The notes: generated by a model from the letters alone, not told the origin. 47,810 nt of DNA from Candidatus Undivivens industriae (GCA_012514745.1 JAAYZR010000029.1:1-47810), one strand, 5' to 3'; shown: positions 1,742 through 43,734, numbered from the stretch's first letter. Numbers and translations are program-made.

Positions 1742-1775
1742 AGCGGCGTAAAGCCGGAACATACAACTTGAAGAT

Positions 1776-2282: not shown

Positions 2283-2686
2283 AGCTACCCGGGGATGCGG
2301 GCAACCGCGGCGCCGTTTTGATGCTGGTGCTTGTGGTGATCTTTACCATATCCATAATGGGCGCCGTGCTGGTGGTTCTTTTTTTTAACGTCTTGACGTT
2401 GAGCGGCATCGAACTGGACAGGACAAGGGCGCTGTATTTGTCCGAGGCCGGCGTTTCTATGGCCGTGTCTGTGCTTAAGTCGCGGGCCGGCGAGGTGAGG
2501 ACCTCCGGCGCGCAGTCTAAGGAGGCCGCGGACGAATCTTCGCGCGGGGAAAAGATAATACCCGTAACCGAACTGGGAGGGGGATATTTCGAAGTTTACA
2601 ACGATTACGCTCAATCTACGATAATATCGATAGGCGTAAGCAACGGGGTAAAAAGAGTGATCCAGGTAAAATACAGCGCGTTCTAA
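2276..2686 (+). CDS. Minor pilin, PilX/GspK-like
   Basis: NRG|AVLMLVLVVIF hydrophobic segment lacking Glu+5; ALYLSEAGV motif typical of the PilX N-terminus. Confidence 0.75.
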   Translation: MVKLPGDAGNRGAVLMLVLVVIFTISIMGAVLVVLFFNVLTLSGIELDRTRALYLSEAGVSMAVSVLKSRAGEVRTSGAQSKEAADESSRGEKIIPVTELGGGYFEVYNDYAQSTIISIGVSNGVKRVIQVKYSAF

Positions 2687-2688
2687 AG

Positions 2689-3087
2689 ATGAAGATGAAA
2701 AAAGGATTCACTTTCGTCGAGATACTTATAACGCTCGCCATCACAGCGGTTTTTTTCATTCCCATGATGCAACTTTTCTCCGGCGCCGTTTATTCGGTGG
2801 CGATCTCGGAAGAAAAGGTTACGGCGGTAAACCTGGCGCGCTGGGAAATGGAACGGGTCAAGAACCTCAATATAACCAAGACCGGGTTAAAAAAGACCGG
2901 CGACCTGTGGATTCCGGAATTATCGGAGCCGCCGTTTGAGATAAACAATAATAAATGGAGGGTCCTGCGCAGAATAAAACCGGAGAGTGATCCTTTGGAA
3001 GTAAGCGTCGAGGTCTATAAGAGCGAAGACTTGAAGACCCCGTTGGCCTCGGTGGTCACTTTGATCGAGGATAATATATGGATATGA
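2689..3087 (+). CDS. Minor pilin, PilV/GspI-like
   Basis: KKG|FTFVEILI prepilin motif; AVNLA..EME helix. Confidence 0.8.
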   Translation: MKMKKGFTFVEILITLAITAVFFIPMMQLFSGAVYSVAISEEKVTAVNLARWEMERVKNLNITKTGLKKTGDLWIPELSEPPFEINNNKWRVLRRIKPESDPLEVSVEVYKSEDLKTPLASVVTLIEDNIWI

Positions 3088-4328
3088 ACATTCCGGCCGG
3101 GGCGAAGGAGCCGATGTCTTTTTCGGTTGAACGGCAGTCTTCACGTGGGTTCACTCTGCTGGAGCTTATTGTCGCGTTGTCCGTATCCGTGATGATCGCC
3201 TCGGCGTTGTATTTCAGCTTGAAGACGGCGTTGGAAAGTTGGGCTGTTTCGCAGGATCAGCTTATCCTGCAGCAGGTTTCATCCAGAATAATGGAAGAAC
3301 TTGTGGAAGGTCCGCTTGGAGGCAACGGTCTTAGGGATGTGCTGGAAGTGGTGGATTGTTCTCCTGTCATGGCGGTGACGGTTATGCCGTGGACGGACGA
3401 CACGCACGACGTCTCGAGCGGCATCAGTGTTTATACCTTGAATAAACACATTAAGCCGGGAACTAACGCCCCTATAGCGGAAGCGCTTCTGCCGGAATCG
3501 AACGAATACAAAGTGGTCCCGGTTACTCTGATAGAGAAAGGGAAATCCGAGGATTATCCGCAGGCCGGCCTGGATATTTCCCTTCCTGCCGCCAGCAGGC
3601 TTAGGTTTACTTATTATCCTGATTATAAGAATGATGTGGATGTCCTGACAACTTTCCGTTACGATCCGGAAGAGCAGGCGGTATTCGTGGAGGATAAGGA
3701 CGGGACAAGAGAGTTATACGCGAATCCTTTTGGAGTGAAGATAACGGAGTTCCGGATGCGTTTTTTCGACAGCGGCAACAATGAGTTGGAGGCCGGCGGA
3801 GATGATGTGTCGGCCGTTACCGGGATAGAGGTGGCTTTCAGGGCAAGAAGCGAGAACGGGACTGAAAGGGAGACAATCACTTTTGTCTCTTTACGCAATG
3901 CGCCGATGCATTCCGGCATCGTCCCTGTGAAAGAAGGCATGCGTTTCGCTATCCCCGATTCAAAAGAGATCAGGGCGTTATCTTTGTGTAATCTTTCTGG
4001 CATAGATAACGGTGACTCTATCATACTGGAAGCGAGATCGGAACACAGCAGAACGTGGCGGCTGAAAGTGCAATTTTCGAAACTATCAAGCGCCGGAAAG
4101 CCTATAATCGAAAGCTATACGGTGGAATATCCTTCCGGTAATAAGGTGTTTTCCGAACGCCCGCGCATACCGGCTGAATTCGGGCTTAACCTGTTGAATC
4201 TCGGACCGAACGGGCGCTATGATTACGGTTTTAACGATATAGACGGGGAAATCCTTCTGACCGGTAAGGTTACCCTGGAGGTAGATAAGATGGATATTGG
4301 GGGAGCGGCGATTTTTGTCCGCCCGTGA
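3078..4328 (+). CDS. Large minor pilin, PilW/GspJ-like
   Basis: SRG|FTLLELIV prepilin motif followed by a large globular domain. Confidence 0.8.
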   Translation: MDMNIPAGAKEPMSFSVERQSSRGFTLLELIVALSVSVMIASALYFSLKTALESWAVSQDQLILQQVSSRIMEELVEGPLGGNGLRDVLEVVDCSPVMAVTVMPWTDDTHDVSSGISVYTLNKHIKPGTNAPIAEALLPESNEYKVVPVTLIEKGKSEDYPQAGLDISLPAASRLRFTYYPDYKNDVDVLTTFRYDPEEQAVFVEDKDGTRELYANPFGVKITEFRMRFFDSGNNELEAGGDDVSAVTGIEVAFRARSENGTERETITFVSLRNAPMHSGIVPVKEGMRFAIPDSKEIRALSLCNLSGIDNGDSIILEARSEHSRTWRLKVQFSKLSSAGKPIIESYTVEYPSGNKVFSERPRIPAEFGLNLLNLGPNGRYDYGFNDIDGEILLTGKVTLEVDKMDIGGAAIFVRP

Positions 4329-4331
4329 GTT

Positions 4332-4387
4332 TTAATCCCCTCACTCAAACCGCAAAAATCTCCCGGTTTTCAAGCCCGGGGAGGTTT
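4332..4387. repeat. Short hairpin element resembling an IS200/IS605-family end; homologous to 47577..47740
   Basis: ttaatcccctc...aaatctcccggttttcaagcccggggaggttt; the same flanks recur at 47577-47616 and 47725-47740. Confidence 0.5.
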
Positions 4388-4390
4388 ATT

Positions 4391-4858
4391 ATGAAAAAGT
4401 TCATCGCCGCATTATCGCTATGCCGCAGGCGCGCCGCGGCGCTTGTTTTCCCGGTTGTTTTATTATTATCCGCGGCCGGCGCGTATGCAGAAGAGAAGCA
4501 ATGGTCCGGCAAATATGACGGTGTTACCTGGGAGAATGATCTTAACTGGTCTCCGCCTTCCGCGCCGTCGGCATCAGACGACGCGCGAGTAGATACCGAC
4601 GGGGCGGATGCGGCGGTAAGAGAGTCTTTCAATCTTAAGTCGCTCACCGTGGGGGGGCATACCGCGGCAATGGTGACGGTTTGGAATTCAGCCGACGGAA
4701 CGCTCCGGCCGGAGAATAGCTCCGTCCCGGCGCTTTATATAAGGAAAGGCGGGAGTGCGGTGTTACGGGGGGCAAGAGTGATTACCTTGACCGGAAGTTT
4801 TAAAAGTTCGGAAGAAACGCTTCCCGCGGAACCCGGGTTTACGTTTGAGGCGAAATAA
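4391..4858 (+). CDS. Small secreted protein of unknown function
   Basis: GGAGG RBS before ATG 4391 (in frame with ORF 4325). Sec signal ends AYA|EE. The W.G....W....NW.....P...DD motif resembles N-terminal caps of surface beta-helix proteins. Confidence 0.7.
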   Translation: MKKFIAALSLCRRRAAALVFPVVLLLSAAGAYAEEKQWSGKYDGVTWENDLNWSPPSAPSASDDARVDTDGADAAVRESFNLKSLTVGGHTAAMVTVWNSADGTLRPENSSVPALYIRKGGSAVLRGARVITLTGSFKSSEETLPAEPGFTFEAK

Positions 4859-4922
4859 GGGCTTATGGATCGCCGGCAAATCCCGAAGTTGAAGATATAT
4901 TAAAGAGAGGACAGCGGAACCC

Positions 4923-7900
4923 ATGAATTGTGAAAAACGGAAGTATATGACAATAAGAGCGTGTGGTTATATTTCCGTCATTTTAATCTTTTTTCTGTCC
5001 GCTTACAGCGTCTATGCCGGACAGCTTAAATTCGAAGGTGTGCCGGTGGATATCACTACCGCCGACAACGAAGACCTCGTCATAGCTCCCGGTTCTGGAG
5101 GGAAGACTCGGATAGGCATAGCCTCGGTAAACGACAATTACGCGGTCTCGCAGAATGATCTGTTCGTCAGCGGTATCCTGGAAACCGGGGGAGCGGGATA
5201 TTTCGATACCACGCTTACGGTAACCGGGCCGTTAACCGCAAACGGCAACGTAATCCTGGGAGACGGTTCATCGGACAAGATCAGCGTGACCGGCCGGCTG
5301 GCATCGGATCTGCTGCCGAATGTGGATTCTTCTTATAATATCGGCTCGTCCATTTTCGCCTTCTCCGGGGTTTACGCCGGCAGAATATCTAGTTCAGGCT
5401 CGGCATTGATTTTATCGCCGGCGTCCGGTTACCCTTTGACTGGTAATGTCTTCAGCAATGCCGCTTCCGGAGACGAAACCGCCTATGACCTGGCTTTGAC
5501 CGTAGATAAATCAGGTTCCGGGAATTATTGCGGTGTGAAATTGGACGTTACGGAAACTCTGGCTCCCGGCAGCGCGAATAAGCTGTTGGATCTTCAGGTC
5601 TCCGGGAACAGCCGTATGCGGGTTTACAGCGGAATGAGTTCGGCCGATTACGGTCTTTTATCTCTTGGAACAGGTTATTGGGACGGGAGCTCTCCCGGAC
5701 ATTTTGCCGGTTCTGCCGACGGAACTATGCTGGCGGTTAACGCTCCGGCCGGTTTTGCCGGGAACTTCATAGATTTGCAGGCGGGAGGCGCCTCCAGGTT
5801 CTACGTTGACTACCTGGGAAACATAGTGTCTTCCGGTTCGCAGATTTATTCCGGCGATATGGTGGTTGGAGGGGATTTAGCCGTCAACGGCGGAAATTTA
5901 ACGACCACCGCCCCCGTCTTTAATTTATTGAATTCCGGCGCCTCCACAGTGAATTTTGCCCAGGGAGCAACGAATCTTAGTATGGGCTCTTCCAGCGGGA
6001 CCACGCTCGTGAACAACAGTTTAACGGCGGAGAAGGGGTTCACTCTTTCTTCCGGCGCGTTGAATCTCAGCGCCAGCTCCGGCGCTTTATCTTTATCCGG
6101 CTTGTCTCCTTCTTACATTTCTACAGGAGAGAACCCTTTTGTCATAACTTCCGGCGGCGAGTCTTCTTGGTCCGTGACAAACGGGAATCTGGCGTTATCC
6201 ACCCTTACCTCCGGTAATCTGGTTTTGACCTCCGCCGGGTCTCTAAACCTTGCCGCCGGAGCTCCCTCTGTTTGGACGTTTCCCGCTTCCACCTCCGCCC
6301 TGAATATCGCCTCCGGGCTATTGAACATCGACACAATAAATTCCAGGATTGGCGTCGGGACTGCGAGCCCGGCGCAGGCGTTCGATGTGGCCGGAACAGG
6401 CAGATTCTCCGCCGGGCTGATCACGCCCAAGCTTTACCCGGCCGCCGATTCCGCCACCGCCGTGCAGATCAATAAAGCAGACGGCACGGCGAATGTGGTG
6501 AATATTGATACTATCAACGGAAGAGTAGGCATCGGGACGACGGCGCCTGCGGCTCCCTTAGATATTATCGGGGCATATACGGATGAATTTGGACAAATTA
6601 GTTTTAGACATTCCGCAGTGGAAACTACGGCTGGATGGATTGGGGCGGGCACTCAAAGTTTGGTAATAGGCGTAAAAAATTCAATATCGAGCGATGGTAT
6701 CCGATTTGAAACGGGAACGAGTACCGGCGCAGAGGCTATGAGAATAACAAGTGCCGGTAACGTCGGTATCGGAACTACCAGCCCCGCCTACACTTTGGAC
6801 GTCAGCGGCGACATCCGGGCTACCGGGACGATCTACGGCGCAAGCGGCACGCAGGTGCCGGTGGGGATCGGCACGGAGAATTACCTCTCCAAGTGGAGCG
6901 CGAGCGGCACTCTGGGGGATTCGGTGGTGTATGACGATGGGACAAAGGTGGGGATCGGGACGACGGAACCTGAAGCGAGTCTTCATACTAATGGAGCAAT
7001 GCTTGTGACTGGTTCTTCTGTCCCTACATCTGCGGCGGGTGTTCGCATGCAGTATTCTGGCGGCCAGGGTGATATTGTTGCTTATGATTGGGGCAGTTCT
7101 TCGTATAAACCATTGGCACTTCGCGGCGCTCCAGTAACAATTACCGGCAACGTCGGCATCGGCACGACGAGCCCGGGGTCTCGGTTGGTGGTGCAAGGCA
7201 CAACAACCGACAGCACAGCTTCTGGTTTGAATGTAATAGATAATAGCGGAGCAAGCATTTTGTTTGTTCGTAATGACGGGAAAGTTGGGATTGGCACGGA
7301 AACGCCAAGCCTTTCTCTTACTATTGATAAATCTTCTAATCCTGCCATTGCCGTTAGTGTATCGGGATCTATTCGCGGGACATTGGCTGCGGCTACAGCA
7401 TCGGAAGCATATTCAAATTTTGCGACTGCGGGAGATGTCATTATACGAAGTAGCAATGAAGACCTAATCTTAACCGCTAAAAACAGTTCCGGGGCCATTC
7501 GATTTGGCGCAGGGAATCCCGATACGGAGAAAGTAACCATATTAAATTCCGGCAACGTCGGTATCGGAACTACCAGCCCCGCCTATACTTTAGACGTCAG
7601 CGGCGATATCCGGGCTACCGGAACGATCTACGGCGCAAGCGGAACGCAGGTGCCGGTGGGAATCGGCACGGAGAACTACCTTTCCAAGTGGAGCGCGAGC
7701 GGCACTCTGGGAGATTCGGTGGTGTATGACGACGGGACAAAGGTGGGGATCGGGACGACGGCACCGAGTTTTCCATTGTCCTTTGGCACAGCACTGGGTA
7801 ATAAGATTGCGCTATATGATTCCGGTTCCGGGAATGGTTATGGATTTGGTATCCAGGCAAGCTTATTACAAGTATTTTCTACAGCATCGGATACTGATAT

Positions 7901-10900
7901 AACTTTTGGTTACGGCAATAGCAGTTCGATGACAAGAAATGTAACCTTCAAAGGAAATGGTACCGTCGGGATCGGGACGACGGTACCCGGGACGAAATTG
8001 CATGTGTATGACGATAATACTGCGGTGTTGAAAATTGAGGGTGGTACCACAAGTACACCGGCAAGAAGAGCAATTTTGGATTTAAAGGGGAATCAAGCGC
8101 GGGCCACCGGTATTCTGTTTGAAAATGCTTATAATCCTTGGTTTTTCGGAACTCCATATTTGGGCGGCGATACTTTGCAAATCGGCAAACATGCTACACA
8201 ACCCGAATATCCTGCCAACGCGTTTGTGACTATAAGTAGTACCGGTAATGTCGGTATCGGGACGACCAGCCCGGCTTACAAGTTAGATGTTAGGGCTGTA
8301 ACGGAGCCGGTTGTTGCAGCGCTTAGCACTACGGCTAATGATCCCAGCAGTGGCCGGATTATTTTTGGTGTTGCTACTGGAGCTGCGATGAATGAAGGTG
8401 GTGTTTTACGCTATGACGGTAGCGCGAATCAAATTTTATTAGGAAGCAACATCAGCGATGGGATAATTAAATATCATCGCGACGCGTCCACGGATACCTT
8501 AATGATATCAAGTACCGGTAACGTCGGTATCGGAACTACCAGCCCCGCCTACACTTTAGACGTTAGCGGTGACATTCGGGCTACCGGGACGATTTACGGC
8601 GCAAGCGGCACGCAGGTGCCGGTGGGGACCGGCACGGAGAATTACCTCTCCAAGTGGAGCGCGAGCGGCACGCTGGGGGATTCGGTGGTGTATGACGACG
8701 GGACGAACGTGGGTATCGGGACGGCCAGCCCAAGTACTCTTTTGGAAATCGCTCAAGGCGATATCGTTGATATGTCTAAAGGATTGAGTATTACTAAAAC
8801 CGGGCAAAACTGGCGTCTCCATATTGATACCAATAATGCTTTAAATATCAGGGATGTAACCGGTACTACAAATAAAATTACTATAGGAAATACAGTTAAC
8901 GGTAACGTGTTATTCAATACCGGCAATGTCGGGATTGGGACGACGTCGCCGGCGGCCAAACTGGATGTATATGGAGCAATTAAACTTGGCGGAGGAACTT
9001 ATGGCGGTATTACCTACAGCGATACACCGATAGCTAATAATACCCAGTTTTTTTCTGGATATGGCAGAGCATTGTTATTTAATGCTGGTGATGTGAACGA
9101 TCCAGATATTACAATTTTAAGCTCCGGCAACGTCGGCATCGGCACGACGAGCCCGACAAAAAGATTGGAAGTGGTTGATAATAGTAGTAATGGGACGGTA
9201 AATTTAGTAAATACATTGGCTTCCGGTTATGCTTCTTTTGATTTTTGGAATAATAGTGGCGTAAAAGTAGGTACGTTCGCTTTTTCAAATCCTTCAGCCT
9301 CTGTTTACCCAAATTCTCTTTGGTTTGGTACAAGAACCAATAATCCAATGTATTTATTCACTAATGATTATTCAAATATAAGGATGGCGATAACAGAGAA
9401 TGGCAACGTCGGCATCGGAACTACGGCGCCAGGTGAAAAATTGCATATTTATGGAGCGACGGGTGTTGTTCGAAGCAAGATTCAAGCTGGCGCGGCAGAT
9501 GGATATGCGACGTTTCAAGCTGCTACTGACGCAGGTGATCTACGGCTTGGTGCTGGTGGGTCTACCGCAACTTCAATAGGTGCTGCAGGACTTGGTTATT
9601 TAGGTACTTTCGTAAATAAAGGATTGCAACTGGTGACGAATGGCAACGAACGTATGCGGATTGATAATTTGGGCAACGTCGGTATCGGAACTACCAGCCC
9701 CGCCTACACTTTAGACGTCAGCGGCGATATCCGGGCTACCGGGACGATTTATGGCGCAAGCGGAACACAGGTGCCTGTGGGGACCGGCACGGAGAATTAC
9801 CTCTCCAAGTGGAGCGCGAGCGGCACGCTGGGGGATTCGGTGGTGTATGACGACGGCACGAATGTCGGCATCGGGACGACCGCGCCGGGGGCGGCGTTGC
9901 ATGTTGCCATTGCTTCGGCAGTTGATTGGATTCGTCTTGAGAGAACTGGGACAAGGACCTGGGGTTTTAATTCATCCAATGGGCATTTAAATTTTTACGA
10001 TGAAACCGCAAGTACTCTTCCTTTTGTAGTCGAAGGAGGTGCCCCAAGCTATAGTCTATATGTTAAAAATAGCGGCAACATCGGCATCGGAACGGCGGAA
10101 CCTTCTGGTAAGTTACATGTTTCGTATCCTGGATTTAATCCGCTTATCTTGGAAAGAAATGACGATAGTGCGTTTGCGCAAGGGTTGGAATTTAGAAAAG
10201 GGAGAAAGGGGGTAGGAGTTCAAGCGGGTGATCAGTTGTTTAGAATGATGGCTTTTGGTGAATTAAACGATGGGACCTATGCTTCCGCTTCGAATCATCA
10301 GGACTTTATGACGGCGGAAGCAACTGATAGTTTTACTTCGGTGGCGCAGGGGCGACAAAGTTCGTTTTATGTTGTTCCTACTGGGAGCATTACACAAACT
10401 CTGGCATTACGATTATTGAATAATGGCAACGTTTATATGCCGGGCAACGTCGGCATTGGGACGACGACGCCAGGAGATAGATTAGAATTGGCTACAGGAG
10501 TAAATCCAGGCTTGCTGATAACCGGCAGTAATACAACGGCGGCAGAGTCCGGCTCCATTTCATTCGCTTCCAATGCTGATAATACTGATACTAGAATTAG
10601 ATTGGTTAATGACGAAGCCGGAAATATCTTAAGATTTGATGTGCGTAATACTAAAGCGAGCGCGTGGACTCCCGCTATGTCGATAATCCGTTATACAGTA
10701 GGGCTTGGCAACGTCGGCATCGGAACAACGAGCCCGGCGTATAATCTGGACGTCAGCGGAGACATTCGGGCTACCGGGACGATCTACGGCGCAAGCGGCA
10801 CGCAGGTGCCAGTGGGGACCGGCACGGAGAATTACCTCTCCAAGTGGAGCGCGAGCGGTACGCTGGGGGATTCGGTGGTGTATGACGATGGGACGAAGGT

Positions 10901-13900
10901 GGGGATCGGGACGACGACGCCAGAAGAAAAATTGCATATTGGCACTGGAAGCATATTAATCGATAATAGCCAATTTTTTAAGCAGAAAGATTCGTCCGGG
11001 ACAGCGCGCCAAGTATTTGTTGCCGATTCTTCAAACAATCTTTATCTTGGTAGTAGCTCTGGATGGACTGGCGGTTTAGTATTGCAATATCCTAATACTG
11101 CAGTTCTAAAAATTTTAAGCGGTGCTTCTGAAAAGGTGCGTATCGACAGTTCCGGTAACGTCGGCATCGGGACGACCGCGCCGGGGGCGAAGTTAAACAT
11201 TGTATCCACAGGAGCAATTCACTCTGGAAGTCCTTCTCTGCTGATTGAGGATACAACATATCGGCCAACTTTAACGCTGAACGCACAAACTGACAAAGCA
11301 CAAGAAATTGTGTTTAAGAATCAGGGGACAACGAAGTGGTGGTTTTCAAATCGGGATGAGGCTGCAGAGGGGAGTCAATTAAGATTCTATTCAGGCGACG
11401 GTATTGCTCGTTTGGCGATTAGTCAAAATGGCAACGTCGGCATCGGGACTACGAGTCCGGCTACGCCTCTGACAATAAACGCGAGTAGTGCTGATCCGCA
11501 ATTTAGAATTACTAGAAGCGCAAGTCCAACGCAAGGAATGACTATAACTGCAGGGGCGGGTACAACAATATTTGCAAGTGTTGAGGGTACTGATTCAGTA
11601 TATGGCCGCTACCAATTTGATAGTACAAAGGGTGCTTCTACGGCAACTCGTATGTATATCGATAGTAACGGCAATGTCGGCATCGGGACGACGGCGCCAG
11701 ATAGACGTTTAACAGTTAAGCAGTCTGAATCAAATGTACCTGCTATTTTAGTAACGCGTTTTGATGAAAATGATATTTCGTATAAAGTTGGTATCGGTGA
11801 GCATTGGGATGCAACCAATGGGGAAGCAATGTATTTATATTCCGCCGCTGGGGTCGCGGGCGGCCTCGATTCTTCCAATGTTAAAATGGCGATTTTCAGT
11901 AACGGCAACGTGGGCATCGGAACAACGAGCCCGGCGTATAATCTGGATGTAAGCGGAGACATCCGGGCTACCGGGACGATTTACGGCGCAAGCGGCACGC
12001 AGGTACCGGTGGGGACCGGCACGGAGAATTACCTCTCCAAGTGGAGCGCGAGCGGCACGCTGGGGGATTCGGTGGTGTATGACGACGGGACGAATGTGGG
12101 GATAGGAACGACGACGCCGCAGGGAACTCTTGATGTTAACGGTATTATTTACATAGGAGGTGCTGACTCAAATATTAGATATAGGTCTGCGGGGGGAACA
12201 TCTTTTGCATTTCACGATGGTACAAGTGCTGAAAGTGTTGTTGCTAGAGATATAAGATTGTCAAGATCATTTTCGACAACAGATGATAATGATCCAGGGG
12301 AAGGAGGTATATACGCTGACGGAATTTTGAAAATTGCAGGTGCGGGGAATAGCTATATTCTTGGCAACGTCGGTATCGGGACGACGACGCCGACGCAAAA
12401 GCTGGACCTTAGCGCCAACATTGCCAACGGTGGATTCTTGGGAACGCAAACGCTTGATACCGGGAGAAGTGAAGGCCTTTTGGTGGGAGTTTATAAAGAA
12501 ACCACCGCTGGTGCTTATACCTTTTCCGGTTTATGGCCGTATGGCGTAACGCCAAGCAACACCAATTATATTTTCGGCACCACCGGGGCAACATCTGATA
12601 CTTATTTTGGGGCGCCGACGGGAAAATCAATGTATTTTCAAGTTGCTGCCGATTCCAAGATGATAATTACCAGTGCAGGCAACGTCGGCATCGGGACGAC
12701 GACGCCGGGACAGGCTTTGGATGTAATTGGCAATGTTAGGATATATAATAGTTCCACGACAGGTAAAGGTTTCTTGGGTTATAACGGTAGCGATACTGCA
12801 CATCGTTTCTCGATGGTGAGATCGGATAGTCCAGAAACAGGTACTTTGTCGATTTCTGCAATGGGCGGTATTGGTCTCACGGGTAATAAGAGTGCTGGGT
12901 ATGAAGGTAGTAATTACCAAATGTATCTAAGTAGTGCGGGCAACGTCGGCATCGGAACAACGAGCCCGGGGACAAAATTGGACGTGTATGGTTCTTTGCC
13001 GAAGATAAGAATTAGTGATTCGAGAGACCAAGATTGGTCAACAAACAATGTTCTTGGTTCTTTGGAATTTTATACTGCCGATACGGTTACAAGCGACCCG
13101 AGAGTAGCGGCATCAATCTCGCAAATTACAGACTATTCTGGCAGCCATAATACGCCACGCGGCGCGTTGCAATTCAATGTATCTACAACGGGCGCAGCTT
13201 CTGAAGCAATGAGGATTTCTAGCGCTGGTAACGTGGGCATCGGGACAACGAGCCCGGCGTATAATCTTGACGTCAGCGGCGATATCCGGGCTACCGGGAC
13301 GATTTACGGCGCAAGCGGCACGCAGGTGCCTGTGGGGACCGGCACGGAGAATTACCTCTCCAAGTGGAGCGCGAGCGGCACGCTGGGGGATTCGGTGGTG
13401 TATGACGACGGGACGAACGTCGGCATCGGGACGACAGCGCCGGGGGCGAAATTGGAAGTGGCTCATGGAGTTGCAAATTTTAAAGTAGAGGATTTGGGTA
13501 CTTATTCAACAAAACTTACGAGTTCAGGAGGGCTAGGTCTAAATGCTAATGGTGGCGGTTCTCTAGTTTTTCTGATTGCTGACACAGAGAAGGCGAGAAT
13601 AGATACTGCGGGCAACGTGGGTATCGGGACGACGACGCCGGAATATGAATTGGATGTGAATGGCGTGATACGGGCGCAGACGGCGATTATTGCAGGTATG
13701 AATGTCGAAACTCTCTCGGCAAATAAAACTTTGACTCCGGGCAGCGACAAAATGTACCAATATCTTGATCCAAATGGAGTTTCTCGCAATATAACTTTGG
13801 CCACTGCGACTGCCGTTACAGGCGATCGTTTCATCTTGCGTAATAATGCGGCTTCTTATAATTCATCTTATTATTTGGCGATCTACCAAAGTACGACGCT

Positions 13901-16900
13901 ATTGGATTATGTTTATGTCGGTTCGATCAAAGAATATGTGTTTGATGGCGTTAATTGGATTTCCGGATCGAATGGCAGTGGAGGGTATGATAATAAGAGA
14001 TACAATATCGCACTGGGGTATAATGCCATCGCTTATGACAGTGGAACCGCGTTGGGTTATGACGCTCGAGGGTATACGAGTGGCGCGGCGGTCGGAAACA
14101 ATTCATACGGATATAATTATGGCGCGGCGTTGGGAAGCGGATCCAAGGGGATGCGCTATGGCGTAGCTATTGGTTACCAAGCCGGTAAGACCCAGACAAC
14201 ATTATTTGATCTTTATAATGTTTTGGTGGGGGCTTATGCCGGTTATCAATTAACCGGAAATTCTGGCGTTGGTTTAGGCAATATTATGGTTGGTTATCAG
14301 TCCGGTTATGACGCAACTTATTCGCCAACCACAGGCTCTAAAAACATTCTTATCGGTTTCCAGGCCGGGGCGCCGAGTAATACCACTTCTAATTTCTTGA
14401 ACATTGGCAACGCGATATTCGCTACCGGCATCAACAATTCCACTTTTCCAGCTATCAGTGAGGCTAACGTCGGGATCGGAATAACAACGCCGAATGCACC
14501 ATTGCATGTAACCGCCGCTAAAACTAATAATATTCTTGCCAGATTTGAAGATACTTCTGCCTTATCAACGGGAGAATTAACCGGGATAAGAATACAAGGC
14601 AAGAATTCAATTGGCGATAGCCAGTATCTTGATTGGTTTTTTGAGCCCAATACCGGCAAATATGGATTCGGTTATGGGACAGGATCAACACATTTGCCTA
14701 TTAGCGCCGGATTATCGTATGCAGATTTAACGGTAGATAATCAAGGCAACGTCGGCATCGGAACTACCAGTCCCGCCTACACTTTGGACGTCAGCGGCGA
14801 TATCCGGGCTACCGGGACGATCTACGGCGCAAGCGGAACACAGGTGCCGGTGGGCACCGGCACGGAGAATTACCTCTCCAAGTGGAGCGCGAGCGGCACG
14901 CTGGGGGATTCGGTGGTGTATGACGACGGGACGAACGTCGGCATCGGGACGACGGATATTACTCGTGGCAAGATAGAGATTAAACAAGGTGTCAATACTA
15001 TAAATGGTGGTATCGGTATTACTAATTCCGGGGTTGCAGGCTCATTGAGATTATGGGTTGATGCCTCAAACATTGCACGTATCAGTAGCGGGGGAACGGA
15101 AGCATCCAATTTGGTGCTTAACGGCGAAGGTATCGGTAACGTCGGTATCGGGACGACCAGTCCAAGCGAGAAATTAGATGTTAGTGGTGCTACTAATACA
15201 TATGTTCGTTCGGTTACTACCGGTGCGAGTGGTTCAGCGGTATTTAAGGCGCAAAATGATGGTACGGCAAGCATTAATATGAGGGCAGATGGGAGTGGCC
15301 TCAGCGCAAATTCTTTATTTGGGTTAAGTCGCGCTAATCTTTTAGAGCTTTTTAGTCAGAATGGTGGTTTAGTGGTGGGGACGCTTGATGCTAATGATTT
15401 GACGCTTGGCACAAATAATACGGCCAATGTAACAATAAAGAGTGCCGGTAACGTCGGTATCGGGACGACCAGTCCGAGTGAATTGTTGCAAGTAGGCGGA
15501 ACTGCCATGGGGTCGGCGAATAGGCACGCAATTTCTTTAGGTGCGGATGGTTGGGGTGTTCCTGGGGTAAGCGGTGTAAATAGCAACGGCGATAAACTCA
15601 TTTTATTTAGGAATGAAACAACGAGTATGGGTCTGGGTGTCGAGAGTAGTAATATGTGGTTCCAGGCAACGCAATCCGGCAGTGCGGGCGGATTTAAATG
15701 GTATCAAAATGGGATCGCGACAATGATATTGAATACCTCCGGCAACGTCGGCATCGGGACGACGACGCCGGCAACAAAACTGGATATATTAGGTGACCTT
15801 ACTCTGTCAACCGCAAAAACTGGTACGGCGTCGCGGCAAATAGGCATGCGCAATGGTAACAATATTAGTTTGATGCAGTTTGACTTTCCTGAAGCGACAA
15901 GTATCCAATCTGATATTAGATTTTTTCGCGAAACCAATAATTCAGTTGCGCCGCAATTGATTATTTTCAAGGCTGATGGCACTAATTCTCCGCAAACCAG
16001 CTTTTCGGCTCGTGGTACTTCTTACATTAACGCAATATCCGGCAACGTCGGTATCGGAACTACCAGCCCCGCCTACACTTTAGACGTCAGCGGCGATATC
16101 CGGGCTACCGGGACGATTTACGGCGCAAGCGGAACACAGGTGCCTGTGGGGACCGGCACGGAGAACTACCTCTCCAAGTGGAGCGCGAGCGGCACTCTGG
16201 GGGACTCGGTGGTGTATGACGACGGGACGAATGTGGGCATCGGGACGACGGCGCCGGCAACAAAGTTGGATATTGACGGAACATTGGGCGTCTCGGCCAA
16301 TTCTTCATACACAACTTCGTCGGGTGCTGGTTTTGTATTTAGGAATTCAACTTCCCCGGATTATGAAATGTATGGCGGCTACGATATGTCGATTGACGGC
16401 GCTTTTTTGCAAGGAGTTCGAGTGGCTTCCCTTATCAAACCTTTTTACATAAATCCGCGCGGAGCCGATGTTAGTCTTGGCGCTATCGGGACGGGAATGA
16501 TCGTCAAAAGTTCCGGCAGCGTCGGCATCGGGACGACGAGCCCCAGTTCTAAATTGCATGTTGGTGGGACTACGGGGAATTCATACATTTCGTTACAGGG
16601 CGGAACAACCAGCTCAGATTACGGGATCGACTGGTTATTTAGTTCAGCTTCGACGAGATACGGTAGCATTAATTTAGATTGGGATACAAGAGCGACAAAA
16701 GGATTACGAATTGCCTCCGGTTATCCTATCTCATTTTATACAGCAGTTACGGACGGTGGCGACAGTGATGCTGATGTAATAATAGATAGTTCCGGCAATG
16801 TCGGCATCGGGACGGCGACACCTGGAGACAAGTTGGAAGTATACAAAGATCAGGCAAGCACAACTCGTATTACTGTAAATAATCCAAGCGTTGCTGATGG

Positions 16901-19900
16901 GGCATTTAAACTTATTTCATTCAAGGAAGGCTCAAATGAGCAGAGTTATATAGGAGTGGCTTCTAGCGGCGATGTGATCGAGCCTCACAGAATGTTTATT
17001 TGGAATACCGAAAACGCGAGATTACAGTTTGGTACGAATGGCACAGAAAAGATGACGATTTTAGGTAGCGGCAACGTCGGTATCGGCACGACGAGCCCCG
17101 CCTACACTTTGGACGTCAGCGGCGATATCCGGGCCACCGGAACGATCTACGGCGCAAGCGGCACGCAGGTGCCTGTGGGGACCGGCACGGAGAATTACCT
17201 CTCCAAGTGGAGCGCGAGCGGTACGCTGGGGGATTCGGTGGTGTATGACGACGGGACGAACGTCGGTATTGGGACGACCAGTCCGAATGCCTTGCTTGAT
17301 ATCTTGAACACAACAATTTCCCACTTAAGATTGTCTTATGATTCATCTCATTATTCCACCATTGGTGTCGATAGCAACGGGTATACCTATTTTGGTGGCA
17401 CATCCGGGAGGTTTTATTTCAATGCTAGTAATAAAAACAATGTATTTTATGTATATGATTATACTGATGGCGCCAGTAGTTACGCTACTTATAACGGGAG
17501 CAGTTATACTCTAAGGAAGCAGGGAAATACCACAGTATCAATACCGAATAATGGCAACGCCTATTTTAATCAAGGGAACGTCGGCATCGGGACAACGACG
17601 CCGGCAAGAAAATTGCATATCTATTCAACAGAATTAGTTTCCGCAATTTTCGAAAGAGATGTTGCTGCTGATGTTGGGATTCAATTTAAAAATCCGGCTT
17701 TTAACTGGACTTTTGGGTTTGATGATAGCCAAGAGACATTTTCTATTGCTGAAGCCTCTGATTTAAATTCTGGTAGTCAACACTTTGTAATTAAATCAGG
17801 TGGCAACGTCGGTATCGGAACGACGACGCCAGGGACACAATTGGAAGTGATGAGCGCTTCCGGAGGCATTGTAAGACTTAAGAGAGACGATATTATAGTA
17901 TCAGGCGGCGAGTTGTTGGGAGAATTACAATTCTATTCCAACGACAATAATTTGGATGCCGAAGGCGTTAGGGCAAAAATATCGGCGTTCAACAAAGAAT
18001 CTGACAGCGATGGCATTAAAACAAACCTTGCCTTCTATACGGTCAATGGGGTTGCGGATAATCTTGCCGAGGCAATGAGAATTGACGAAAGCGGCAACGT
18101 CGGCATCGGCACAACGACGCCCGCCTATAAGCTGGATGTCAGCGGCGACATTCGGGCTACCGGGACGATCTACGGCGCAAGCGGAACGCAGGTACCGGTG
18201 GGCACCGGCACGGAGAATTACCTCTCCAAGTGGAGCGCGAGCGGCACGCTGGGGGATTCGGTGTTGTATGATGACGGGACGAATGTGGGCATCGGGACGA
18301 CGAGCCCCTCCTATAAATTGGATGTTAATACTACCAGCGCTCTTCACTTAGGCAATTTATATGTTAGAGGTACCGGGTATAATCCTGTTCTGGATTCTGG
18401 TGCCAGCGCTGGGTCATTAACATTTGGTAGTGGTGTTAATAATCCGGGTGGAAGAATTGTCTCTTATGGCGGGATGCACGCGACTTTACCGGGAATTATT
18501 ACATTTAGCACAGGTATTGGTGAAACTGTTCCAGAGGTAATGCGTATAGATAGCACCGGTAACGTCGGCATCGGGACGGCGGCGCCAAACGCAGTACTCG
18601 AAGTAAGTAAAGCTAATAGTGGGGCAGAGCAAGTAGCAGGTATTTTTACGAATGCGGCAATTGCTGATGCAACTGCGGTGAGTTTTAAAATGCAAAATAG
18701 TACCGATACTTCTACCAATTACGGAGCGGTGAAATTCAAAAGCTCCCGTAATGTTGGCGGTTCGGCGGATTTGCTTATTCAAGCCTCAGACAATACTGGC
18801 GTATTGCAGGACAGGTTTATTATCGATAAATCCGGCAACGTCGGTATCGGGACGACGGCGCCGGGGGCGAAATTAGAAATAACTCCCGGATCGACTGTCG
18901 GCGATGAGGCAATCAATGTAAAAGATGAGTTTATTATTAAAAAAGTAAGTACGTCTGGATATCGCATAATGGGGCGGGGTTTTAATACGATTTCCGCGGC
19001 TGATTCGTCCGGTTTTGGTTTGTTGACAAGTTCTAATACGGCGCAGTTTTTAAATGCTAAGGGTATATTTTTGGGCGCAAGTTATGCTAGCAGCGCGGCG
19101 AATGAGGGAGAAATTCGTACTGCTGCCGAGACTAATTTAATATTTTCTCCGGCGGGAAGTACCGCGATGACTATTCTTAGTGGGGGCAATGTGGGCATCG
19201 GGACGACGGCGCCGGGGGAGAAGCTCGAGGTGGCCGGGGCAATAAAATCCTTAACCTCGACTCAATACACCGGGTTTTATCTACATAACGGGTCCCATAT
19301 GGTTGCGGACTTGAAAGGATTCGACGACGATAACGATAACGGCAACCTTCAGCTTTATGATAATGGCGTTGTGGGGATAAAAATCCAGGGTGCCGGTGAA
19401 TCTTACTTTAATGGCGGCAACATCGGCATCGGCACAACGGCTCCGGGGGCGACATTAGACGTGGTAGCACGGGCTATAACGGGGCAGGAATCAGTTATGA
19501 AATGGTCTGTGGCTGATGCAGCGGATGCTTATATTGATATTAGAAATAATACTTCTACTGATGGGCAAGCGATGTTAGCTTTTAGGGGTGTTAATGCTAA
19601 TAATGTTGGACCAGCCTTAAGTTTTATTGGGGACGTTACTTCGTCTCGTGATTCTGGAACGTCCGGAGCGATTACATTTCAGGCCCGAAAAGGTTCTGGG
19701 GTGGTAGCTAATCGTCCCGCAATCGTTTTCGATAATTATACGGAAAGATTGATGACAATTTTGAGTTCCGGCAACGTGGGCATCGGGACGACGGCGCCGG
19801 GGGAGAAACTGGAAGTGAGCGGAGCTGTTCCAATGATAAAAATAATTGATCCTTCCTATCCTGACCGTAATATTAAAGTGGGAGTTGTCAATTCGGGCGG

Positions 19901-32137: not shown

Positions 32138-32204
32138 AGAGGTTTAGCATTCCGTTACCGCCCGCAGGGTGAGCCGTAGGCAATCAGGGAGCAGGATCAA
32201 AGAT

Positions 32205-32651: not shown

Positions 32652-32655
32652 GACC

Positions 32656-34380: not shown

Positions 34381-34432
34381 CGGCCGCCGGCCAAGGAGCC
34401 CGCGCGGGTGACCGGCGGGATAAACAGAATAA

Positions 34433-36160: not shown

Positions 36161-36161
36161 G

Positions 36162-37238: not shown

Positions 37239-37245
37239 GGCGGTT

Positions 37246-42783: not shown

Positions 42784-42815
<32 letters not shown>

Positions 42816-43720: not shown

Positions 43721-43734
43721 AACGGTCCTAAGGT

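What the first reader, a model, noticed from the sequence alone, without database searches (positions are those of the whole stretch)
6756..18299. Eleven near-identical 207-bp constant spacers placed every 3-4 variable modules
Seen: start-to-start spacings are 795, 966, 1155, 1035, 1197, 1323, 1518, 1296, 1029 and 1023 bp, and the intervals hold 3,3,4,3,4,4,3,4,3,3 variable modules. This is a two-level architecture (constant + 3-4 unique modules)n. Inference: the constant 69-aa unit is a periodic trimerisation or hinge element re-registering the fibre. At the DNA level it provides homology long enough for RecA-mediated block exchange, and it is kept homogeneous by gene conversion.
Basis: partly seen in the sequence, partly recalled or inferred. 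Interest (0 to 1): 0.75.

Follow-up and report, generated by a model that had tools for sequence, protein, structure and literature searches.

The report
Giant shuffled surface-fibre gene, Omnitrophota
The eleven repeats are real and lie inside one 5,282-residue gene for a phage-tail-fibre-like surface fibre of a tiny, probably predatory or host-dependent bacterium, and comparison with related strains shows that these repeats and the short junctions between the other building blocks are where the gene swaps, gains and loses pieces.

Summary
Observation confirmed. Eleven 207-bp units lie at the stated coordinates with the stated spacings and module counts, all in one ORF (4923-20771, 5,282 aa).

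The protein is a secreted, predicted homotrimeric fibre. It is related to Bdellovibrio MAT fibres and phage tail fibres, and ends in a phi29-type self-cleaving chaperone domain. It is the last gene of a type II secretion/type IV pilus-like operon in a 1.5-Mb Omnitrophota-type genome.

The constant unit is the shortest version of the ordinary shaft module, not a separate fold. Its protein sequence is held by purifying selection (dN/dS 0.03). Its DNA is only 87-97% alike (dS 0.4-0.5).

Five further alleles show shuffled module order. Between two near-identical alleles, orthologous units differ about 10 times more than their flanks, and 97 of 105 of those differences re-assort variants shared with other units. 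This indicates short-tract gene conversion without within-gene homogenisation.

Linkage breaks across constant units about twice as often as across plain junctions, but both are used. Hinge or re-registering roles are unsupported.

The scan has met this kind of fibre before on other DNA, in CPR bacteria and Omnitrophota. I class it as a new variant of a known kind.

The parts
4923..20771 (+). Single ORF of 5,282 aa: giant MAT/tail-fibre-like fibre gene. The database gene model starts 8 codons later, at 4947.
   Evidence: P0122 is 5,274 aa and starts at residue 9. PHROG tail fibre phrog_9942, E 3e-43 to 4e-45. PDB MAT fibres 8OND, 8OL4, 8OJN, 8OML.
4923..5021 (+). Probable Sec signal peptide (residues 1-33, ...SVYAG|QLKF)
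   Evidence: Read from the sequence: basic stretch, hydrophobic stretch, small residues. No predictor was run.
5022..6344 (+). Conserved N-terminal region (about 440 aa), shared by all alleles; probable base or anchoring end
   Evidence: 93-95% identical in alleles B and C, 47% to P0021. The fold was not obtained: AF2 pLDDT 34.
6756..6962 (+). Constant unit 1
7551..7757 (+). Constant unit 2
8517..8723 (+). Constant unit 3
9672..9878 (+). Constant unit 4 (residues 1584-1652); included in the trimer prediction
10707..10913 (+). Constant unit 5
11904..12110 (+). Constant unit 6
13227..13433 (+). Constant unit 7
14745..14951 (+). Constant unit 8
16041..16247 (+). Constant unit 9
17070..17276 (+). 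Constant unit 10
18093..18299 (+). Constant unit 11 (most divergent copy, 3 residue changes)
20358..20771 (+). Last module plus C-terminal intramolecular-chaperone domain of the phi29 gp12 type. Candidate self-cleavage lies before D5180 (codon at 20460).
   Evidence: PF11962, 27.5 bits against a cut-off of 25. PDB 28nb_A chaperone domain, E 4e-5, and 3GQH, E 0.012, whose first residue aligns to residue 231 of the query, which is D5180. The cleavage site is inference.
527..4858 (+). Upstream, tightly packed secretion/pilus genes: T2SSF/PilC (527-1741), pseudopilin (1776-2282), small membrane ORF (2276-2686), pseudopilin-like ORFs (2689-3087 and 3078-4328) and a 177-aa ORF of unknown family (4325-4858)
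   Evidence: No promoter-like or terminator-like site in 4300-5000. The same genes flank the fibre gene in alleles B, C and D.
20969..21847 (+). 292-aa membrane-anchored coiled-coil protein downstream, conserved in the related loci

Best explanation
The region is the middle of one gene for a secreted shaft protein of about 5,250 residues.

What the protein is:
- It is predicted to form an intertwined homotrimer and is built like the mosaic adhesive trimer (MAT) fibres of Bdellovibrio and like phage tail fibres.
- It has a signal peptide, a conserved base and 56 beta-helix modules, each opened by GNVGIGTTxP.
- It ends in a phi29-type C-terminal chaperone domain that would start trimer folding and then cut itself off.
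- By analogy with Bd2133 (370 residues, about 145 A), the fibre would be roughly 0.2 um long.
- It is the last gene of a type II secretion/type IV pilus-like operon and most likely serves contact with other cells.

What the constant unit is:
- It is the shortest form of the ordinary module, present eleven times.
- Its amino-acid sequence is held by strong purifying selection.
- Its synonymous variants are continually re-assorted among copies by short-tract gene conversion, so orthology between strains is lost but the copies never become identical.

How the gene varies:
- The units (207 bp) and the GC-rich junction strings (24-30 nt) at every module boundary are in-frame homologous recombination points.
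- Single modules are duplicated, lost or swapped at plain junctions.
- Blocks are swapped, and linkage is broken about twice as often, at constant units.
- The result is a strain-variable fibre with a conserved proximal third and a conserved last two modules.

Shown: the anatomy, the homology, the allele mosaicism, the excess re-assorted divergence of the units and the selection figures.
Inferred: trimer formation, secretion route, cleavage site, fibre length, adhesive role, and that recombination acts through RecA.
For: Anatomy:
- One open frame with 11 units.
- 56 modules: 45 variable or terminal, plus 11 constant.

Homology:
- PHROG tail fibre phrog_9942, E 3e-43 to 4e-45.
- PDB 8OND (Bd2133), E 2.7e-10, with the unit aligned to one module, chain residues 124-224; also 8OL4, 8OJN and 8OML.
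- PF11962, 27.5 bits against a cut-off of 25, plus 28nb_A and 3GQH.
- MAT properties were taken from passages of PMC10769870.

Trimer:
- ESMFold2 on three copies of residues 1398-1728 gave ipSAE 0.89 in 3 of 3 runs, against a best control of 0.02.
- pLDDT was 94, with about 1,200 contacts running through the unit.
- The tool's calibration: 21 of 30 solved pairs and 0 of 23 single chains reach the mark.

Context: T2SSF, pseudopilins, then the fibre gene, then a coiled-coil protein, aroA and mreBCD.

Alleles:
- Three syntenic metagenome contigs and two database proteins carry 8, 11, 11 (truncated), 11 and 10 units in genes of 3,299-4,772 aa.
- Their flanking genes are 92-99.5% identical to the window.

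Selection: units have dN/dS 0.03 with dS 0.40-0.59; variable modules have 0.14-0.19.

Conversion:
- B against D: units differ at 100 of 2,046 nt, variable modules at 46 of 9,195 (ratio 9.8).
- A against B, blocks 1-5: 74 of 930 against 55 of 2,931 (ratio 4.2).
- Units 6-9 are identical where the flanks are identical.
- 97 of 105 B-D unit differences use alleles also present in other units. The 8 private ones, 8 of 1,449 nt or 0.55%, match the flank divergence of 0.50%.
- 244 of 435 site pairs fail the four-gamete test.

Exchange points:
- 24 of 39 recurrent module types have more than one successor.
- Constant-spanning pairs differ in 32 of 51 cases, plain-junction pairs in 35 of 125.
- One module is tandemly duplicated in B, the copies differing at 2 of 216 nt, and one unrelated module is inserted at exact junctions.
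- Junction codons are 81-93% GC-ending, against 21-49% for the same amino acids elsewhere in the gene.
Against: - All alleles come from short-read metagenome assemblies, and no long read was seen. Logan contigs of the two best-holding runs cover block interiors without a difference but stop inside the units, so they do not bridge a whole unit.
- No exact donor was found for any converted tract; the closest other units differ at 4-15 sites over the tract. Tracts are therefore composite, or the donors were not sampled.
- Copies within a gene are no more alike than copies between alleles, so conversion does not homogenise the array at this time scale.
- The junction statistics count related alleles more than once.
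- The trimer score may come from the model's memory of solved fibres.
- The N-terminal region could not be folded (pLDDT 34).
- The PF11962 match covers only profile positions 46-98 of 228.
- Nothing here measures adhesion, secretion, cleavage or expression.
- Why this one module type is so strongly conserved is not explained by a shaft role alone.
Confidence: 0.62

Rival explanations
1. The constant unit is a periodic docking site. Its whole surface is conserved because a partner binds at each of the eleven copies along the shaft. The partner could be a side protein, a modifying enzyme, the secretion machinery or neighbouring fibres. Conversion and exchange are then by-products of the repeated DNA.
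For: - dN/dS of 0.03 in the unit against 0.14-0.19 in the other modules of the same fold. A bare shaft role does not obviously explain this.
- The unit is kept at 96-97% in fragments from other assemblies (P0002, P0003, P0015).
- A second unit type (81% identical) is itself uniform in another Omnitrophota assembly (P0021, P0022) and occurs once in allele C.
- Small conserved genes of unknown family flank the fibre gene.
Against: - No partner was identified or tested.
- About four fifths of the unit's residues are predicted to lie in chain-to-chain contacts, as in the neighbouring variable modules, so burial in the trimer could explain part of the constraint.
- Spacing between units is irregular, 265-506 residues.
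Confidence: 0.15
2. The unit is a special trimerisation, hinge or re-registering element that resets the three chains at intervals.
For: - It is the shortest module, 62 residues between motifs against 44-284.
- It recurs every 3-4 modules.
- Full-length Bd2133 fibres are flexible in electron micrographs (passage of PMC10769870).
Against: - It aligns as one ordinary beta-helix module of Bd2133.
- It shows the same predicted strand-to-strand contacts between chains as the variable modules.
- The last eight modules and the first three have no such unit.
- By inference, identical units at eleven places would favour mis-registration.
Confidence: 0.1
3. Assembly artefact. The array, or the excess differences inside the units, come from short-read assemblers joining or mixing repeat copies and strains.
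For: - Every sequence used is a metagenome assembly.
- Allele D ends at a contig end inside the gene.
- Logan contigs break inside the units.
- A path switch between copies in an assembly graph would imitate conversion.
Against: - The first three blocks have the same order in 5 of 6 alleles from separate assemblies, and all complete alleles share the same flanks and ends.
- Four of 11 units are letter-identical between B and D exactly where the flanks are identical.
- The B-D differences lie mostly in the first 80 nt of the unit, next to unique sequence. No position of a 207-nt unit is more than 104 nt from a unique flank, so single 150-nt reads could phase each one. The read length is assumed, so this is inference.
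- Exact runs shared between units are at most 96 nt.
Confidence: 0.06
4. No conversion. The units are simply a mutational hot spot under purifying selection.
For: The units are GC-rich (GC3 0.76-0.79) in an AT-richer gene. Nearly all variation is synonymous: 58 of 73 variable columns are at codon position 3.
Against: - 97 of 105 B-D differences and 78 of 81 A-B differences are alleles already present in other units.
- The private differences occur at the flank rate.
- Linked haplotype blocks, such as positions 30-40, move as a piece between units.
Confidence: 0.04

Closest known systems
Mosaic adhesive trimer (MAT) fibres of Bdellovibrio bacteriovorus, e.g. Bd2133 (PDB 8OND), Bd2439 (8OL4), Bd3182 (8OJN) (Caulton et al. 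2024, PMC10769870; passages read)
   Same: - Secreted fibre of a bacterium that lives on other cells.
- Modules with the xMxIxxxGNVGIGTxxP signature align to the solved beta-helix domains.
- Predicted intertwined trimer.
- One end is conserved and the other parts are mosaic.
- A phage-type chaperone sits at the C-terminus in part of the family.
   Different: - It is five times longer: 5,282 aa against about 1,000.
- It is a single copy in its genome, against 21 paralogues in Bdellovibrio.
- Variation lies in the order of shaft modules between strains, not in alternative tips.
- It has eleven copies of one conserved module.
- Its chaperone is of the Peptidase_G2 type, not S74.
- It sits in a secretion/pilus operon.
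- Homology of the N-terminal domain to the MAT N-domain was not tested.
Phage tail fibres and tailspikes with C-terminal intramolecular chaperones: phi29 gp12 (PDB 3GQH), Dpo31 tailspike chaperone domain (28nb), S74-type fibres such as the Thermus phage phiFa distal tail fibre
   Same: - Same module family: phrog_9942 and phrog_18345; P0027.
- Same kind of C-terminal domain.
- The 23-nt junction string occurs in at least 129 stretches of viral contigs.
   Different: - No phage genes are nearby. The neighbours are secretion, aroA and cell-shape genes.
- A signal peptide is present.
- The 207-bp unit core was not found in viral contigs: 0 matches.
Gp38 adhesins of T-even phages: conserved glycine-rich motifs between hypervariable segments, proposed as recombination hot spots for modular shuffling (Tetart et al. 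1998 and Trojet et al. 2011, as cited in PMC12032242; passage read, originals not read)
   Same: Conserved in-frame motifs separate variable segments and mark where related genes exchange segments.
   Different: - Gp38 is a small monomer with five motifs.
- Here there are two sizes of handle (24-30 nt and 207 nt) in a trimeric shaft of 56 modules in a cellular genome.
- No sequence relation was tested.
Giant proteins of Omnitrophota next to type II secretion-like loci (West-Roberts et al. 2023 preprint, 10.1101/2023.11.21.568195; 2026 preprint 10.64898/2026.06.07.730766; passages read)
   Same: Same phylum, a very long extracellular protein, and a neighbouring secretion system with T2SS/T4P-like parts.
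   Different: - Those papers describe proteins of 30,000 aa and more of other architectures: Archaeovorins, dockerin-type and multi-enzyme proteins.
[quoted passage not shown]
- Their supplements were not seen.
Programmed cassette variation of surface proteins (Neisseria pilE/pilS, Borrelia vlsE); recalled, from no call
   Same: Gene conversion through conserved segments changes a surface-exposed protein in frame.
   Different: No silent donor cassettes. The unit and the modules occur only inside the expressed gene in this genome. Variation is seen between strains, not shown within a clone.

Membership tests
MAT (mosaic adhesive trimer) fibre superfamily | Fibre region homologous to the solved MAT beta-helix/prism domains | tested here: met
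   phmmer against PDB: 8OND E 2.7e-10, 8OL4 E 1.9e-6, 8OJN E 1.9e-5, 8OML E 2e-4 for the unit with its flanks. 8OND E 4.6e-8 for the C-terminal third.
MAT (mosaic adhesive trimer) fibre superfamily | Homotrimer | tested here: met
   In silico only. ipSAE 0.89 in 3 of 3 runs against a best control of 0.02, pLDDT 94. The score may reflect likeness to solved fibres.
MAT (mosaic adhesive trimer) fibre superfamily | Signal peptide followed by the conserved beta-rich N-terminal domain of about 130 aa shared by all 21 Bdellovibrio MATs | tested here: inconclusive
   A signal-peptide-like N-terminus was read. The N-terminal 581 aa found no MAT chain in PDB, but the deposited MAT chains matched here are C-terminal parts. 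The AF2 model was unusable (pLDDT 34).
MAT (mosaic adhesive trimer) fibre superfamily | C-terminus is an S74 chaperone/protease or an alternative tip | tested here: met
   There is no PF13884 (S74) hit. PF11962 (Peptidase_G2 chaperone) scores 27.5 bits against a cut-off of 25. It therefore falls in the non-S74 group with a different phage chaperone.
MAT (mosaic adhesive trimer) fibre superfamily | Displayed on the cell surface and binds prey surface molecules | not testable with these tools
   No experiment was possible.
Phage tail fibre (part of a virion or prophage) | Encoded among phage structural genes | tested here: not met
   The neighbours are T2SSF, pseudopilins, aroA, mreBCD, PBP2 and rodA. 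The same cellular flanks occur in three related contigs.
Peptidase_G2 intramolecular chaperone (phi29 gp12 type) | Pfam model above the gathering score, and likeness to the released chaperone fragment | tested here: met
   PF11962 27.5 bits against 25, but only profile positions 46-98 of 228. 28nb_A E 4e-5 and 3GQH E 0.012, starting at chain residue 1.
Peptidase_G2 intramolecular chaperone (phi29 gp12 type) | Self-cleavage at the start of the domain | not testable with these tools
   The site before D5180 is inferred from the alignment only.
Repeat array under concerted evolution | Copies within one genome are more alike than copies between genomes | tested here: not met
   Mean differences per 207 nt: A-A 18.1, A-B 19.4, B-B 19.5, D-D 20.3, C-C 25.7, A-C 26.3.
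Repeat array under concerted evolution | Exchange among copies: orthologous copies diverge faster than flanks through shared variants, with incompatible site pairs | tested here: met
   Ratios of 9.8 and 4.2. 97 of 105 differences are shared variants. 244 of 435 site pairs fail the four-gamete test.
Cassette-based antigenic variation (pilE/pilS type) | Silent donor copies outside the expressed gene | tested here: not met
   All 11 full DNA matches and all 19 protein matches of the module query lie inside this one ORF of the 94.7%-complete genome.

The most novel reading that the evidence does not exclude
The 207-bp units and the GC-rich junction strings form a selected, DNA-level 'grammar' for in-frame recombination.
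- The short string is written almost letter for letter in fibre genes of many bacterial and archaeal phyla and of viruses.
- Any two fibre genes that meet can therefore swap modules without breaking the frame.
- The long unit adds a lineage-specific, high-frequency handle for block exchange.
- Populations of these tiny predatory or epibiotic bacteria would then retune a 0.2-um contact fibre, and thereby the range of cells they can attach to, on the time scale of 1% genome divergence.
- The unit may also double as a periodic docking site along the shaft.
Probability: 0.3. Interest if true: 0.8.

Novelty: new variant of a known kind. Interest (0 to 1): 0.56.

Why it matters
- Omnitrophota are uncultured, very small bacteria thought to live on or prey on other cells, and how they recognise those cells is unknown.
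- This locus gives a concrete candidate: one very long, strain-variable contact fibre made of phage-fibre parts and tied to a secretion/pilus operon.
- Several alleles from closely related strains are available, so the locus also gives a rare quantitative view of how such a gene evolves. About half of the modules differ between strains that are 1-3% apart. Single modules are gained or lost at exact junctions, and one conserved module is scrambled by conversion at about ten times the background rate.
- The same junction DNA string in distant phyla and viruses suggests a shared pool of fibre modules across cells and viruses.
- Practical value: the unit and the junction strings are ready-made markers for finding and typing these genes in metagenomes. 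The modular, in-frame design is of interest for engineering fibres.

Tried and rejected
1. AF2 monomer model of the N-terminal region with a 4-row alignment: mean pLDDT 34.1, so no fold search was made.
2. ESM Atlas look-up of the same region: best score 0.91, to unnamed fragments. Lower rows named phage hyaluronidase, a pectate-lyase Ig domain and bactofilin. These are leads only.
3. Pfam on the four pieces of the protein found only PF11962. Pfam at E up to 1 found nothing for the 284-aa Gly/Tyr-rich module or the 177-aa neighbour.
4. Laying Logan contigs of four runs:
   - The contigs stop inside the units, so they neither confirm nor refute block order.
   - The many 'joints' in X3 and X5 have sides of only 20-27 nt, which is the conserved motif itself, so I did not count them as rearrangements.
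   - Loose ends at junctions (for example 11 contigs at 11669 in X5) fit modules having other neighbours in those samples, but I did not rely on them.
6. Four of the 7 contigs from the metagenome scan (L021, L028, L029, L034) share only the 20-mer with the gene (0 blastn hits). I dropped them as chance matches.
7. The search for an exact donor of each converted tract found none.
8. The unit was searched in 40 relatives (protein) and in 400 genomes of the phylum (DNA). Only weak or partial matches turned up: the best was 47% over the whole unit in G031, plus a 51-nt DNA match in G243. No orthologous allele is therefore held among the species representatives searched.
9. Considered and rejected:
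   - A pilS-like silent-cassette system: no copies lie outside the gene.
   - A prophage: the neighbours are cellular.
10. D was left out of the five-allele junction count because it nearly duplicates B. The divergent unit C8 was left out of the unit statistics.

Full report
OBSERVATION

The repeat finder returns one family of eleven direct copies between 6728 and 18326, with start-to-start spacings of 795, 966, 1155, 1035, 1197, 1323, 1518, 1296, 1029 and 1023. In register, the 207-bp cores start at 6756, 7551, 8517, 9672, 10707, 11904, 13227, 14745, 16041, 17070 and 18093.

The cores are 87.0-97.1% identical as DNA, mean 91.3%. As protein, 66-69 of 69 residues equal the commonest form. Similarity stops sharply a few codons outside the core.

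All copies are in frame in one ORF, 4923-20771, of 5,282 codons with no stop. Three modules lie before the first unit and eight after the last.

The unit occurs only in this gene in the 1.55-Mb, 94.7%-complete genome.

WHAT THE GENE IS

The window is cellular DNA. Upstream lie a T2SSF/PilC gene, a pseudopilin, two small ORFs (one with a pseudopilin-like N-terminus), a 416-aa protein with the N-methylation motif and a 177-aa ORF. These overlap or nearly abut, and no promoter-like or terminator-like site lies before the giant gene. Downstream come a membrane-anchored coiled-coil protein, aroA, mreBCD, PBP2 and rodA.

Earlier notes of this scan on other pieces of the same genome call it an Omnitrophota-type bacterium. 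The names of the closest database hits agree.

The protein starts with a signal-peptide-like stretch; this was read and no predictor was run. The database gene model starts 8 codons later.

Evidence for the family:
- Pfam sees only a Peptidase_G2 intramolecular-chaperone domain at the very end: PF11962, 27.5 bits against a cut-off of 25, profile positions 46-98 of 228.
- PHROGs places the body in tail-fibre families: phrog_9942, E 3e-43 to 4e-45.
- Among solved structures, the modules match the Bdellovibrio 'mosaic adhesive trimer' fibres: 8OND/Bd2133 at E 2.7e-10, and 8OL4, 8OJN and 8OML.
- The C-terminal domain matches a tailspike chaperone domain (28nb_A, E 4e-5) and the phi29 pre-neck appendage chaperone fragment (3GQH, E 0.012).

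Passages of Caulton et al. 2024 (PMC10769870) describe those fibres. They are surface-exposed, intertwined trimeric beta-prisms or beta-helices of a predator. One end is conserved and the other diversified, and part of the family ends in a phage chaperone/protease.

Three copies of residues 1398-1728 (two variable modules, unit 4, one variable module) were folded together with ESMFold2:
- ipSAE was 0.89 in 3 of 3 runs, against 0.02 for the best of three controls.
- pLDDT was 94, with about 1,200 contacts.
- The runs agreed in at least 98% of contacts.
- In the tool's calibration, 21 of 30 solved pairs and 0 of 23 single chains reach the mark. That calibration used two copies, not three.

Similar fibres have been solved, so the pass shows likeness and does not show that the protein trimerises.

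By proportion with Bd2133 (370 residues, 142-150 A), a shaft of about 5,150 residues would be about 0.2 um long. This is inference.

It is the only gene of this kind in the genome. At least 405 proteins of 2,905-9,244 aa in public data match the region at E of 1e-20 or better, among 1,398 scored candidates. Many carry PF13884, and those that bear a source name are from Patescibacteria, Omnitrophica and Burkholderiales.

WHAT THE CONSTANT UNIT IS

The unit with its flanks aligns to one short beta-helix module of Bd2133, chain residues 124-224. Its last strand, DSVVYDDGTNVGIGT, takes the place of the xMxIxxxGNVGIGT strand that ends every variable module. In the trimer prediction, the best-determined contacts inside the unit link the YTLDV strand of one chain to the VSGDIR strand of another. 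The same kind of contact is predicted at the starts of the neighbouring modules.

The unit is therefore the shortest version (62 residues between motifs) of the common module, not a separate fold. Related fibres carry their own recurring connector of the same type. For example, P0004 has four longer copies (read by eye), and a 3,039-aa fibre next to a GspE-like gene in a genome of the same order has three copies of a different 300-nt repeat.

A second unit type, 81% identical, is found in P0021 and P0022 and once in allele C.

ALLELES FROM RELATED STRAINS

A scan of metagenome contigs with a 20-nt core of the unit returned 24 loci from 7 contigs. Four short contigs share nothing else with the gene and were dropped as chance matches.

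Three contigs carry the same locus with the same flanks:
- B: 4,772 aa, 11 units.
- C: 3,299 aa, 8 units, one of them the second type.
- D: cut by the contig end, at least 3,867 aa, 11 units.

Flanking genes are 95.3-99.5% identical between the window (A) and B or D, and 91.7-97.0% between A and C. Two further full-length alleles came from the protein database: P0123 (4,483 aa, 11 units) and P0124 (4,430 aa, 10 units). Fragments P0002 and P0003 carry the same unit at 96-97%, with modules of A in another order.

Module maps (modules joined at 75% identity or more) show:
- All alleles share the N-terminal region, the next module and the last two modules.
- Five of six share the first three blocks in the same order.
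- The rest is mosaic.
- A shares 25 of its 45 non-constant modules with B and 14 of 45 with C.

IS IT KEPT HOMOGENEOUS BY CONVERSION?

Three results answer this together.

(1) Selection. Among the 40 units of type one, 73 of 207 columns vary: 58 at codon position 3, 10 at position 1 and 5 at position 2. dN/dS is 0.03 with dS 0.40-0.59. Shared variable modules and the N-terminal region have dN/dS of 0.07-0.22, and 0.14-0.19 for the variable modules alone. The constant protein sequence is therefore held by purifying selection, and the DNA is far from homogeneous.

(2) No concerted pattern. Copies within a gene differ as much as copies in different alleles: A-A 18.1, A-B 19.4, B-B 19.5, D-D 20.3, C-C 25.7 and A-C 26.3 differences per 207 nt.

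(3) Exchange among copies.
- B and D are nearly the same allele. Their variable modules differ at 46 of 9,195 nt (0.50%), but their orthologous units differ at 100 of 2,046 nt (4.9%), a ratio of 9.8.
- In the colinear first five blocks of A and B the figures are 55 of 2,931 and 74 of 930, a ratio of 4.2.
- Where the B-D flanks are identical (units 6-9), the units are identical too.
- Of 105 differing sites in the seven differing B-D units, 97 use two alleles that both occur in other units. The 8 private ones (8 of 1,449 nt, 0.55%) match the flank divergence. For A-B the figure is 78 of 81.
- 244 of 435 pairs of biallelic informative sites show all four combinations.
- The 5' parts of D1-D3 carry a linked haplotype (positions 30-40) that B1-B3 lack, while their 3' parts agree.

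This is the signature of short-tract gene conversion that re-assorts a standing pool of synonymous variants. No exact donor was found for any tract, so tracts are composite or the donors are unsampled.

Assembly mixing is the main caveat. Against it:
- The B-D differences lie next to unique sequence.
- Units are identical where flanks are identical.
- No position of a unit is more than 104 nt from a unique flank.
- Exact runs shared by two units are at most 96 nt.

The phasing argument is inference, because I did not see the reads.

ARE THE UNITS THE EXCHANGE POINTS?

Partly. Among five full-length alleles (D left out as a near-duplicate of B), 24 of 39 recurrent module types have more than one successor. 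Pairs of occurrences separated by a constant unit have different successors in 32 of 51 cases. Pairs at plain junctions differ in 35 of 125. In 20 further pairs one allele has a unit where the other has a plain junction.

An earlier count on three alleles gave 32 of 38 constant-spanning junctions broken against 56 of 94 plain ones. Both counts use related alleles repeatedly and overstate significance.

Whole blocks bounded by units are inserted or replaced between A and B. The most recent events, those separating B from D, are of another kind: a tandem duplication of one module (copies differing at 2 of 216 nt) and one unrelated module present or absent, both at exact plain junctions.

The plain junctions are themselves conserved as DNA:
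- Within the gene, the codons of the motif are 81-93% GC-ending, against 21-49% for the same amino acids elsewhere. For example, Val GTC is used 24 of 29 times in the motif against 30 of 253 elsewhere.
- GC3 is 0.76-0.79 in the units and 0.42-0.45 in the variable modules, against 0.58-0.72 in neighbouring genes.
These include Patescibacteria, Omnitrophica, Elusimicrobia, Gammaproteobacteria, Planctomycetes, Acidobacteriota and several archaea.
- The same string occurs in at least 129 stretches of viral contigs.
- By my arithmetic from the stated collection size, about 0.02 matches would be expected by chance in the genome collection.
- The 20-nt unit core was not found in viral contigs. The full unit was found in none of 400 other genomes of the phylum and in none of 40 relatives. 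The long handle is thus lineage-specific and the short one is family-wide.

recA is present (456 bits). That recombination runs through RecA, and that 20-96-nt exact runs suffice for it, rests on general knowledge recalled from no call.

READS

Twenty of the 24 listed runs, from 17 studies, hold part of a 10-kb stretch of the gene, and five hold half or more of its words. I laid four.

In X1 and X2, contigs without a single difference cover the block interiors and run 28-83 nt into the units, where they stop. This confirms the unit edges of A but not the block order. In X3 and X5, many contigs at 92-99% likeness end or turn unlike at the junctions. The listed 'joints' rest on only 20-27 nt and were not used.

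The evidence against a chimeric assembly is that six gene models from separate assemblies agree.

MECHANISM, WITH ODDS

My best reading (0.62) has five parts:
- The product is a secreted trimeric contact fibre, folded from a self-cleaving C-terminal chaperone.
- It is exported or mounted by the neighbouring secretion/pilus system.
- Its shaft modules are reshuffled between strains through in-frame homologous recombination at two classes of conserved DNA.
- The 69-residue unit is a strongly constrained minimal shaft module.
- The unit's copies undergo frequent short-tract conversion.

Rivals:
- The unit is a periodic docking site for a partner (0.15). This would explain the tenfold stronger constraint and is compatible with the rest.
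- The unit is a hinge or re-registering element (0.10).
- The pattern is an assembly artefact (0.06).
- The units are a mutational hot spot without conversion (0.04).

COMPARISON AND NOVELTY

The kind is known: MAT fibres (2024), mosaic phage tail fibres, and the idea that conserved motifs act as recombination sites in the gp38 adhesins. That idea is cited from Tetart 1998 and Trojet 2011 in a passage of PMC12032242; I did not read the originals.

New here:
- The size of the protein.
- The two-level set of handles.
- The single-copy, strain-variable design in Omnitrophota beside a secretion/pilus operon.
- The measured conversion signal.

I found nothing in print on this. A search for 'giant genes' with 'Omnitrophota' listed 8 papers. 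In the two most relevant preprints, 'tail fiber'/'tail fib' and 'trimer' occur 0 times in the main text. The string 'NVGIGT' occurs in 0 papers of the library. Supplements were not seen.

This scan has reported the same kind of fibre, with periodic conserved units and a DNA-conserved junction, on other DNA: CPR bacteria, another Omnitrophota genome and Bacteroidales. My verdict is a new variant of a known kind, with interest 0.56.

Noticed in passing
window 41073-45334, with 43182-43930: The 23S rRNA gene spans 4,262 nt against a 2,925-position model. It carries a group I intron (RF00028, 43725-43930) next to a LAGLIDADG homing-endonuclease ORF (43182-43712).
   Followed up: partly
window 32169-38454: A second secretion/pilus gene set lies 11 kb downstream: an MshEN-domain protein, two T2SSE/PilB-type ATPases, a response regulator with an HD-GYP-type domain and a second T2SSF/PilC. 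A GGDEF-GAF-HAMP protein precedes it.
   Followed up: no
window 13611-14462: One variable module is 284 residues long and holds Gly/Tyr/Ala-rich short repeats (xGYxAxA-like) that recall adhesin head repeats. No Pfam family matched at E up to 1. Fragment P0003 has a similar insert in another context.
   Followed up: partly
window 6963-18092 (variable modules) against neighbouring genes: The variable modules have GC3 of 0.42-0.45, well below neighbouring genes of the window (0.58-0.72) and below the N-terminal region of the same gene (0.58). This could mean a foreign or shared module pool, or relaxed codon selection.
   Followed up: partly
loci L035-L114 and L193-L272: The exact 23-nt spelling of the module junction occurs in at least 158 stretches of genomes from many bacterial and archaeal phyla and in at least 129 stretches of viral contigs, including two giant-virus bins. 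Many of these lie in arrays a few hundred bases apart.
   Followed up: partly
L025, unit 8 of allele C: One of the eight units of allele C is of a second type (41-55 of 207 nt different from all others). It matches the unit of P0021 and P0022 from another Omnitrophota assembly, which suggests import of a block from a more distant lineage.
   Followed up: partly
L322 (G031:C1:262000-278000), ORF 4699-13818: A genome of the same order has a 3,039-aa fibre of the same family directly after a GspE-like ATPase gene and a 499-aa secreted protein. It has its own 300-nt repeat in three copies (71-100% identical) and an S74-like C-terminus.
   Followed up: partly
window 6681-7555 and 19617-20288, minus strand: Three ORFs of 157-223 codons lie on the opposite strand inside the giant gene. 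They are most likely chance open frames in GC-skewed coding DNA.
   Followed up: no
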